From the human T2T-CHM13v2.0 reference genome, Homo sapiens, in assembly GCF_009914755.1 (NCBI RefSeq), contig NC_060925.1: 64,000 nucleotides of DNA; one strand, given 5' to 3'. A program made the translations under genes and the position numbers. Positions 4,883 to 5,409 of this stretch are shown here, piece after piece. The number at the start of each line of letters is the position of its first letter. Position 1 is the stretch's first letter. Under the pieces are notes generated by a model, which saw only the letters and a program-made list of their open reading frames with translations, had not been told where the DNA came from and searched no databases.

Positions 4883-5409
4883 GGGCTCATTCCAAGATGG
4901 CTGAATAGGAACAGCTGTGGTCTGCAGCTCCCAGCATGATCGATGCAGAAGATGGGTGATTTTTGCATTTCCAACTGAGCTCTGAAAAGAGCAGTGGTTC
5001 TCCCAGCACAGGATTTGAGCTCTGAGAATGGACAGACTGCCTCCTCAAGTGGGTCCCTGACCCCCGTGTAGCCTAACTGGGAGACACCTCTCAGTAGGGG
5101 CCGACTGACACCTCATGCAGCTGGGTGCCCCTCTGAGACGAAGCTTCCAGAGGAAGGATCAGGCAGCAATATTTGCTGTTCTGCAATATTTGCTGTTCTG
5201 CAGCCTCTGCTGGTGATACCCAGGCAAACAGGGTCTGGAATGGACCTCCAGCAAACTCCAACTGACCTGCAGCTGAGGGACCTGACTGTTAGAAGGAAAA
5301 CTAGCAAACAGAAAGGAATAGCATCAACATCGACAAAAAGGACATCCACACCAAAACCCCATCTGTAGGTCACCAACATCAAAGACCAAAGGTAGATAAA
5401 ACCAAAAAG

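What the first reader, a model, noticed from the sequence alone, without database searches (positions are those of the whole stretch)
4883..5409. L1 5'UTR with its intron precisely removed: a SpIRE (97/622-type) in an older L1PA6/7
Seen: the L1 begins at 4883 and runs exactly 97 nt to ...tttccaactgag (4979), then continues with ctctgaaaagagcagtgg. The whole 5'UTR is only 527 nt. Known: in L1 consensus, CCAACTGAG is followed by the donor GTACC, and CT(C/T)TGAAGAGAGCAG is preceded by the acceptor ...TCTGACAG. Splicing between them followed by retrotransposition gives Spliced Integrated Retrotransposed Elements (SpIRE97/622; Larson et al. 2018), which lose most of the internal promoter. Inference: this is a genomic copy of a spliced L1 mRNA, probably promoter-crippled on arrival. 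As I recall, the published survey centred on L1PA1-6, so an L1PA7 assignment could place it outside that catalogue.
Basis: partly seen in the sequence, partly recalled or inferred. Interest (0 to 1): 0.8.

Follow-up and report, generated by a model that had tools for sequence, protein, structure and literature searches.

The report
Uncatalogued old spliced L1 retrocopy (SpIRE)
This is a dead, roughly 30-million-year-old L1 retrotransposon copied from an L1 messenger RNA whose 5' leader had been spliced, a known kind of element (SpIRE), but older than almost all those in the published list and absent from it.

Summary
The L1 starts at 4883, a 97-nt first segment ends at 4979, and ORF1's ATG is at 5410, so the 5'UTR is 527 nt. 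In 12 of 12 intron-bearing relatives, GT follows ...CTGAG directly. In 11 of 12, ...CTGACAG directly precedes CTCTGAAGAG. The missing 378-536 nt is therefore bounded by GT...AG. The same junction occurs 176 times in this genome and 0 times in the reversed control.

The element has its own target-site duplication at a TTTT/AAAA site. It inserted into the tail of an older minus-strand U6 pseudogene. It is a SpIRE97/622-type retrocopy.

It is not in Larson 2018's table of 116, which holds one L1PA6 and none older. Eight of nine old-type junctions found here are also missing from that table.

The subfamily is mosaic. The 5'UTR and about 4.7 kb of body are L1PA6-type. The last ~0.86 kb is L1PA7-type, with the switch between 9626 and 9752.

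The older, long L1PA7 5'UTR lacks the acceptor AG. That explains why this SpIRE class has an age floor.

Verdict: a new member of a known kind, of modest interest. Orthologues could not be checked.

The parts
4840..4849 (.). Left copy of the 10-bp TSD (TAGCTTTTTT) of the older U6 pseudogene insertion
   Evidence: Identical to 10953-10962. On the + strand the empty site reads TTTTTT/AAAAAAAA.
4850..4867 (-). T-rich tract, the complement of the U6 pseudogene's poly(A) tail; the L1 insertion now separates it from the U6 body
   Evidence: On the minus strand it reads AAAAAAAAGAAAGAAAAA... followed by GCTA. Its role is inferred from position.
4868..4882 (.). 5' copy of the L1's own TSD (AAAAAAATATAGAAT), a second copy of the U6 3' terminus
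   Evidence: The reverse complement ATTCTATATTTTTTT matches the Rfam U6 consensus end guuccauaUUUUU at 11 of 13 positions by eye. It shares the derived ATTCTA with the U6-attached copy. The two copies agree at 10 of 15 positions ungapped, with the first 6 identical.
4883..4979 (+). L1 5'UTR first segment ('exon 1'), 97 nt, ending ...CCAACTGAG
   Evidence: Its start matches the start of the full-length relatives.
4979..4980 (+). Splice junction GAG|CTC (equivalent to 97/622)
   Evidence: GT follows in 12 of 12 relatives and AG precedes in 11 of 12; 176 genomic copies of this junction type.
4980..5409 (+). Rest of the 5'UTR (430 nt), L1PA6-type
   Evidence: Identity is 91.4-94.0% to 20 relatives, 80.2% to L1PA7a and 77.1% to L1PA7b.
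5410..10216 (+). L1 body holding broken ORF1 and ORF2 remnants; L1PA6-type up to about 9626
   Evidence: Collinear with relatives at 88.5-91.4% identity. The longest ATG ORF is 201 aa.
9626..9752 (+). Interval holding the switch from L1PA6-type to L1PA7-type states
   Evidence: at sites 9306-9626, 10 of 12 are L1PA6-state and 0 are L1PA7-state. At sites 9752-10826, 20 of 22 are L1PA7-state. Fisher p = 1.0e-6.
10217..10519 (+). Later Alu insertion in the ORF2 3' part, with its poly(A) and the right copy of its TSD (..TGAGTTC)
10520..10841 (+). L1 3' end (end of ORF2 plus 3'UTR), L1PA7-type, ending ...AACTTAAAGTATA
10842..10848 (+). TA-rich remnant where the L1 poly(A) tail should be
   Evidence: The tail has degenerated, and this reading is inferred from position.
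10849..10952 (-). U6 snRNA pseudogene (RNU6-695P). Its last 13 nt (10849-10861) are the 3' copy of the L1 TSD.
   Evidence: Rfam RF00026: 70.8 bits, E = 4.1e-18, model positions 1-105 of 105.
10953..10962 (.). Right copy of the U6 pseudogene TSD (TAGCTTTTTT)

Best explanation
Window 4883-10841 is a retrotransposed copy of an L1 mRNA that had been spliced within its 5'UTR. The splice used the donor after position 97 and the acceptor that corresponds to 620/621 of L1.3. ORF2p then copied the spliced RNA into DNA by target-primed reverse transcription. The nick fell on the minus strand at the TTTTT/AAAA junction between the 3' end and the poly(A) tail of a U6 pseudogene already resident at this site. 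The insertion therefore duplicated the last ~13-15 nt of U6. The copy lacks about 0.5 kb of the internal promoter and was probably nearly silent from the start (inferred). It has since decayed: both ORFs are broken, an Alu has inserted, and the tail has degenerated. Its sequence is L1PA6-type for about 4.7 kb and L1PA7-type for the last ~0.86 kb. That places it at the old edge of the period in which this splice could occur.
For: Shown: the boundaries are exact, with GT following in 12 of 12 and AG preceding in 11 of 12 intron-bearing relatives. Shown: the junction recurs at 176 places against 0 in the control, and 6,201 places keep the intact acceptor context. Shown: the element is collinear with full-length relatives from the canonical 5' start to the 3' end. 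Shown: the TSD copies are ATTCTATATTTTTTT and ATTCTACATATAC (minus-strand view). Both carry the same two departures from the Rfam U6 consensus, at a TTTT/AAAA site. Shown: the subfamily placement. In the ML tree of the 3' 1.24 kb, rooted on an L1PA8-labelled copy, the window lies outside the 100/100 clade that holds all 22 L1PA6-to-L1PA3 rows, and among L1PA7-labelled copies. The 5'UTR is 91-94% identical to L1PA6-type copies. Of 79 diagnostic sites, nearly all are L1PA6-state up to about element position 4,700 and L1PA7-state after it. [quoted passage not shown] Inferred: the splice occurred in RNA, and the copy was silent on arrival.
Against: No orthologous locus from another primate could be examined, so a later deletion is excluded only by argument. 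The junction has 2 nt of microhomology (AG). No clear poly(A) tail remains, only 7 nt of TA-rich sequence. The two TSD copies agree at only 10 of 15 positions. The mosaic means that part of the element may have a different history, such as gene conversion. Subfamily labels rest on a handful of RepeatMasker-labelled copies that I located by converting hg19 coordinates. RepeatMasker and Dfam could not be run on the element itself.
Confidence: 0.85

Rival explanations
1. A full-length L1 inserted here and later lost the ~0.5-kb segment through a genomic deletion, for example one mediated by microhomology.
For: There are 2 nt of microhomology (AG) at the junction. No orthologue was checked.
Against: Both breakpoints coincide with GT and AG to within 2 nt. 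The same junction is present at 176 genomic places against 0 in the control. Random deletions would not recur at one pair of positions.
Confidence: 0.04
2. The element was copied from an already spliced genomic element (a SpIRE source driven by a neighbouring promoter), not from a freshly spliced mRNA of a full-length L1.
For: The 2025 bioRxiv paper 10.1101/2025.02.02.635956 (passages read) describes one L1PA2 SpIRE that regained mobility by using the RAP1GDS1 promoter.
Against: In the tree of the 430-nt 5'UTR, the 8 spliced copies and 12 intron-bearing copies form an unresolved star with no SpIRE clade. No genomic copy exceeds 94% identity over the 5'UTR, 87% over the 3' end or about 91-92% over 9300-10216. 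The four other old SpIREs whose 3' ends entered the tree (L023, L027, L028, L029) all have L1PA6-type 3' ends.
Confidence: 0.08
3. The whole 6-kb block is one minus-strand U6-led chimeric insertion: U6, then a poly(A)-bearing RNA antisense to a SpIRE located elsewhere.
For: The outer 10-bp TSD TAGCTTTTTT, a T-rich tail and U6 nucleotide 1 abutting the TSD all look like a single event.
Against: The 15 nt between that tail and the L1 5' end are a second copy of the U6 3' terminus, sharing its derived bases. This is what an L1 TSD inside the U6 tail predicts, and it has no explanation under this rival. U6 and L1 are in opposite orientation. In U6/L1 chimeras, most U6 segments are sense to the L1 (10.1101/2025.02.02.635956, passages read).
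Confidence: 0.03

Closest known systems
SpIRE97/622 (Larson et al. 2018, PLoS Biol 16:e2003067, PMC5860796)
   Same: Same donor and acceptor positions, the same ~0.5-kb loss from the 5'UTR, an otherwise full-length L1 and TPRT hallmarks. A TA-rich, degenerate tail is also noted for several catalogued copies in their S1 Table.
   Different: It is absent from their 116 entries. Its 3' end is L1PA7-type, whereas they report none in L1PA7 or older. Its junction flanks (50 nt either side) match a catalogued L1PA1 SpIRE at only 85 of 102 alignment columns. That copy is my stand-in for their L1.3 probe, which required more than 95% identity. The comparison is not decisive, because their one L1PA6 entry scores 86 of 101 on the same stand-in.
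L1PA6 and L1PA7 subfamilies (RepeatMasker naming)
   Same: The 5'UTR and body match L1PA6-type copies. The last ~0.86 kb matches copies labelled L1PA7 in the hg19 RepeatMasker table of Pinson 2022 (PMC9396940, Table S1).
   Different: It is neither subfamily throughout, with a sharp switch between 9626 and 9752. Of the 12 closest genomic matches to 9300-10216, none shows the same clean switch and two (L061, L065) show a partial one.
U6/L1 chimeric insertions (template switching or RNA ligation)
   Same: A full-length U6 copy lies directly next to an L1.
   Different: The orientations are opposite, U6 abuts the L1 3' end rather than its 5' end, and each element has its own TSD. This is a nested pair of separate insertions, not a chimera.

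Membership tests
SpIRE97/622 | The 5'UTR deletion is bounded exactly by the donor GT (after position 97) and the acceptor AG (620/621 of L1.3) | tested here: met
   GT follows in 12 of 12 and CTGACAG precedes in 11 of 12 intron-bearing relatives. The breakpoint is defined to within 2 nt.
SpIRE97/622 | Otherwise a full-length L1 that begins at the canonical 5' end | tested here: met
   the start aligns with that of the relatives, and the element is collinear to the 3' end apart from one Alu.
SpIRE97/622 | Target-site duplication at an L1 endonuclease-type site | tested here: met
   a 13-15 nt TSD with 10 of 15 positions identical and the first 6 identical, including two shared derived bases. 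The site is TTTTT/AAAA.
SpIRE97/622 | 3' poly(A) tract | tested here: inconclusive
   Only 7 nt of TA-rich sequence lie between the L1 end and the 3' TSD copy.
SpIRE97/622 | The intron was already absent when the element inserted (same state in orthologues) | not testable with these tools
   No other primate genome is held.
SpIRE97/622 | Reduced promoter activity of the spliced 5'UTR | not tested
   Larson measured L1.3 only. A reporter assay with this older 5'UTR is needed.
L1PA7 (by 3' end) | 3'-end diagnostic bases shared with RepeatMasker-labelled L1PA7 copies | tested here: met
   20 of 22 sites from 9752 to 10826; the window lies outside the 100/100 clade of L1PA6 and younger rows.
L1PA7 (whole element) | L1PA7 states along the 5'UTR and body | tested here: not met
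   the L1PA6 state holds at nearly all diagnostic sites up to about element position 4,700; the 5'UTR is 77-80% identical to two L1PA7 copies and 91-94% identical to L1PA6-type copies.
L1PA7 / L1PA6 | Name given by RepeatMasker/Dfam to this element | not testable with these tools
   No repeat library is held. The element is not in Pinson's filtered hg19 table.
U6/L1 chimera | U6 in sense at the 5' side of the L1, with one TSD pair around both | tested here: not met
   U6 is antisense to the L1 and lies at its 3' side, and there are two nested TSD pairs.

The most novel reading that the evidence does not exclude
The element may record two RNA-level events in a single insertion. Reverse transcription would have begun on an L1PA7 mRNA, then switched about 0.86 kb in to a spliced L1PA6-type mRNA. 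The result is a one-step inter-subfamily recombinant that is also a SpIRE. A milder version is that the element belongs to a short-lived transitional lineage with a new 5'UTR and body but the old 3' end. In that case the 97/622 acceptor was in use before the L1PA6 3' end existed, which would make this one of the oldest SpIREs possible.
Probability: 0.25. Interest if true: 0.5.

Novelty: new member of a known kind. Interest (0 to 1): 0.35.

Why it matters
SpIREs are used to estimate how often splicing cripples L1 and how changes in the 5'UTR shift that burden over time. This copy, and at least seven other old-type junctions missing from the 2018 table, suggest that a probe built from a young L1 undercounts old SpIREs. 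The published figure of one in L1PA6 is probably too low.

The comparison also gives a simple reason for the age floor. About 610 copies of an older 5'UTR form, as seen in an L1PA7-labelled copy, read CTGCTG(G/A) at the acceptor position and lack the AG. About 6,200 copies read CTGACAG.

None of this changes the model of how SpIREs form. The element itself is an inert fossil in an intron of an uncharacterised lncRNA.

Tried and rejected
1. I considered a single minus-strand U6-led chimera copied from an antisense L1 transcript. I rejected it once the 15 nt left of the L1 proved to be a duplicate of the U6 3' terminus.

2. I considered twin priming and U6-primed reverse transcription. Neither explains that duplicate.

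3. I looked for a source copy or a SpIRE lineage and found none. No copy exceeds 94% identity over the 5'UTR, 87% over the 3' end or about 91-92% over 9300-10216. The 5'UTR tree is an unresolved star.

4. I looked for this element's RepeatMasker name in Pinson 2022 Table S1. No chr1 row begins with 9070, 9071 or 9072 (hg19) or with 9024 or 9025 (hg38). This is expected, because that table keeps only copies that span consensus positions 400-600.

5. Khan 2006 could not be read under the PMC id I recalled (no such paper held). Statements about subfamily ages are therefore taken from Larson or recalled.

Most anchors were therefore fetched as 0.1-6 kb pieces. Only two L1PA7 copies were available over their full length. 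L1PA5, L1PA4 and L1PA3 anchors cover the 3' 1.4 kb only.

Full report
**Observation.**
- The L1 begins GGGCTCATTCCAAGATGG at 4883.
- ...TTTCCAACTGAG ends at 4979.
- CTCTGAAAAGAGCAGTGG follows from 4980.
- The ORF1 ATG is at 5410.

The 5'UTR is therefore 97 + 430 = 527 nt.

**Is the junction at splice sites?**
No L1 reference could be typed, so I used the window's own genome, which genome search reports as G000 with the window at C1:90086001-90150000.

A search with 4883-5409 scored 40 of 5,378 candidates.
- Besides the window itself, 18 places match contiguously across the junction.
- Another 21 places match only from query position 95-99 onwards.
- For 12 of those 21, a separate match to query 2-9 through 97 lies a few hundred bases upstream. 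These are intron-bearing copies.

I fetched those 12 copies and 8 of the contiguous ones. I anchored the last 30 nt before the window's junction and the first 30 nt after it in each copy. The results were:
- In all 12 intron-bearing copies, the base after ...CTGAG starts GT (GTAC in 10, GTAT and GTAG in one each).
- In 11 of 12, ...CTGACAG directly precedes CTCTGAAGAG. The exception, L014, has a local deletion there.
- The intervening segment is 378-536 nt.
- Six of the 8 contiguous copies gave a gap of 0. For the other two (L026, L030) the fuzzy match to the first 30-mer failed.

The breakpoints therefore sit on GT...AG. There is a 2-nt ambiguity, because exon 1 and the intron both end in AG.

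A 30-nt junction pattern with up to 2 mismatches finds 176 places in the genome and none for the reversed control. The intact acceptor context CCTGTCTGACAG|CTCTGAAGAGAGCAG, with up to 2 mismatches, has 6,201 places. Junction-type copies are thus about 2.8% of the sum. That is of the order of the 1.8-2% reported by Larson.

**The element as a whole.**
- BLAST against the relatives shows collinearity from 4883 (spliced copies) or 4978 (intron-bearing copies) to 10216 at 88.5-91.4% identity.
- An Alu lies at 10217-10509, with its own short TSD.
- The L1 resumes and runs to about 10841-10845.
- The longest ATG ORF is 201 aa, so both ORFs are broken.

**Insertion hallmarks and the neighbouring U6.**
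Rfam finds a complete U6 on the minus strand at 10849-10952: 70.8 bits, E = 4.1e-18, model positions 1-105 of 105.

At first the block looked like one minus-strand U6-led chimera, for three reasons.
- TAGCTTTTTT occurs at both 4840-4849 and 10953-10962.
- A T-rich tract follows the left copy.
- U6 nucleotide 1 abuts the right copy.

However, the 15 nt between that T-rich tract and the L1 5' end read ATTCTATATTTTTTT on the minus strand. This is a second copy of the U6 3' terminus. The Rfam consensus there is guuccauaUUUUU, and the copy attached to U6 reads ATTCTACATATAC. Both copies carry the same two departures from the consensus, A for g and T for c. Ungapped they agree at 10 of 15 positions, with the first six identical.

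The simplest history has two ordinary events.
1. A U6 retro-pseudogene inserted in minus orientation, with TSD TAGCTTTTTT, a + strand site TTTTTT/AAAAAAAA and a poly(A) tail.
2. The L1 then inserted in plus orientation, exactly at the TTTTT/AAAA junction between the U6 3' end and that tail. This duplicated the last 13-15 nt of U6.

The L1 poly(A) tail is now only a TA-rich remnant. Larson's S1 Table notes degenerate or TA-repeat tails for several catalogued SpIREs.

**Comparison with the published catalogue.**
Larson et al. 2018 (PMC5860796; Results sections, Methods section on BLAT and S1 Table read) searched hg38 with a 100-nt probe from L1.3 and kept hits above 95% identity. They list 116 SpIRE97/622 in L1PA1-L1PA6, with one in L1PA6 and none in L1PA7-L1PA17, L1PB or L1MA.

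Their chr1 entries start at 37207908, 71215791, 80945988, 92232048, 100676811, 103921941, 114182452, 144965102, 197829599, 210614344 and 228707260. Five of these can be matched to junction hits. They give hg38-to-CHM13 offsets of about -122 to -162 kb on 1p. The window's element should therefore lie near hg38 chr1:90.25 Mb, which is my estimate. No entry is there.

Among junctions of the old form GAG|CTCTGAA with at most one mismatch, 9 are listed. Of the 105 matches in that call, 5 were not listed. By the same coordinate reasoning, only one of the 9 (C5:126603137, Larson's single L1PA6 entry) is in the table.

As a stand-in for the L1.3 probe, I used the junction ±50 nt of the catalogued L1PA1 SpIRE-104.
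- The window matches it at 85 of 102 alignment columns.
- Six other uncatalogued old copies match it at 84-87 of 101.
- Larson's own L1PA6 entry matches at only 86 of 101.

The exact reason the window's element was missed therefore cannot be settled from here.

Two full-text searches found no later report of SpIREs in L1PA7 and no T2T-based SpIRE survey. The only other paper holding the terms mentions SpIREs in passing (passages read).

**Subfamily.**
RepeatMasker and Dfam are not available, so I used labelled anchors from two sources.
- Larson's subfamily labels for ten catalogued SpIREs (L1PA2 to L1PA6), fetched as 1.4-kb 3' ends. One of these, the L1PA2 copy L040, was too short to enter the tree.
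- The hg19 RepeatMasker table in Pinson 2022 (PMC9396940, Table S1). From it I located, by coordinate conversion, four labelled copies:
  - one L1PA6 (L012);
  - two L1PA7, here called PA7a (hg19 chr1:101285517) and PA7b (hg19 chr1:101305263);
  - one L1PA8 (hg19 chr1:96434501).

Strand and place agreed for all four, and length for the three that were fetched whole.

The 3' end (10510-10848) is only 76.5-84% identical to the copies chosen for 5'UTR similarity. It is 85-87% identical to its best genomic matches.

I built an ML tree of the last 1.24 kb with 29 rows, rooted on the L1PA8 copy. The rows were those whose BLAST match covered nearly the whole query; 8 of 37 were left out for short or partial alignments. 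The tree gives the expected ladder. The window lies outside a 100/100 clade that holds all 22 L1PA6-to-L1PA3 rows. It sits next to that clade (82/91), among the L1PA7-labelled copies and the best 3' matches.

In contrast, the 430-nt 5'UTR is 91.4-94.0% identical to 20 L1PA6-type copies, but only 80.2% to PA7a and 77.1% to PA7b.

With both L1PA7 copies fetched whole, 79 sites separate them from at least 10 of 11 L1PA6-type copies. The window has the L1PA6 state at almost all sites up to about element position 4,700, and the L1PA7 state afterwards.

A finer set of 34 sites in the last 1.24 kb places the switch between 9626 and 9752.
- At 9306-9626, 10 of 12 sites are L1PA6-state, none are L1PA7-state and 2 are neither.
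- At 9752-10826, 20 of 22 sites are L1PA7-state.
- Fisher p = 1.0e-6.

The element is therefore a mosaic. RepeatMasker, as I recall, names L1PA copies mainly from the 3' end, so it would probably call this one L1PA7.

Of the 12 closest genomic matches to 9300-10216, none shows the same clean switch. Two (L061, L065) are largely L1PA6-state on the left and mixed or L1PA7-state on the right. I cannot decide between three origins:
- a transitional or recombinant source lineage (about 50% by my judgement);
- a template switch during this insertion (about 25%);
- a later gene conversion (about 15%).

**Why the class has an age floor.**
- PA7a has both splice sites, GAG|GTACCTGG and CTGACAG|CTCTGAAG, with 528 nt between them.
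- PA7b carries the longer 5'UTR form. It has the donor, but reads ...GCTTGCTGA|CTCTGAGG with no AG.
- Genome-wide, the AG-less form CCTGCCTGCTG(A/G)CTCTGAAGAGAGCAG has 610 places with up to 2 mismatches. The AG form has 6,201.

The acceptor thus appears with the newer 5'UTR, which some L1PA7-labelled copies already carry. The window's element carries that newer 5'UTR together with the older 3' end.

**Mechanism and function.**
The spliced-RNA origin is inferred from the boundaries and from their recurrence. Loss of promoter activity is inferred from Larson's L1.3 reporters, which gave about 267-fold over vector for the wild type and about 7-fold for the spliced form. The 5'UTR tree gives no sign that spliced copies bred among themselves, in line with Larson's 'dead end' view. 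The element lies in an intron of lncRNA LOC105378849 in the same orientation (hub annotation). I saw nothing that suggests a present function.

**Limits.**
- No orthologues were examined.
- No repeat library was available.
- Subfamily anchors are few and were located by coordinate conversion.
- The counts are pattern matches, not curated elements.
- CHM13 holds sequence absent from hg38, so 176 against 116 is not a like-for-like comparison.

Noticed in passing
window 10849-10952 (-), with 4840-4867 and 10953-10962: RNU6-695P is a full-length U6 retro-pseudogene with a perfect 10-bp TSD (TAGCTTTTTT). The L1 split its poly(A) tail from its body, and the tail's complement now lies 6 kb away at 4850-4867. 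The U6 insertion therefore predates the L1.
   Followed up: yes
window 9626-9752: There is a sharp switch from L1PA6-type to L1PA7-type diagnostic bases within one element that is flanked by a single TSD pair. The cause may be a recombinant lineage, a template switch or a gene conversion; this is unresolved.
   Followed up: partly
window 10217-10519: An Alu in + orientation has inserted into the ORF2 3' part of the L1. It has a ~12-nt poly(A) and a TSD ending ..TGAGTTC. Its subfamily was not determined.
   Followed up: no
G000 genome-wide; for example C2:8991781, C2:149155839, C3:163134069, C4:148546012, C10:84008354, C13:76667368, C23:79609626: At least seven further old-type SpIRE97/622 junctions (GAG|CTCTGAA) do not correspond to any entry of Larson's S1 Table. 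The genome has 176 junction-pattern hits against 116 catalogued in hg38.
   Followed up: partly
L050 (C1:100693200-100695000, minus strand); genome-wide counts: The longer, older L1PA7-type 5'UTR reads CTGCTG(A/G)|CTCTGA at the acceptor position and has no AG (about 610 copies). The newer form reads CTGACAG| (about 6,200 copies). The acceptor seems to have arisen with the 5'UTR change inside L1PA7.
   Followed up: partly
window 5155-5195: The tandem duplicate GCAATATTTGCTGTTCT in the 5'UTR is not private to this copy. All 20 L1PA6-type relatives aligned carry it.
   Followed up: yes
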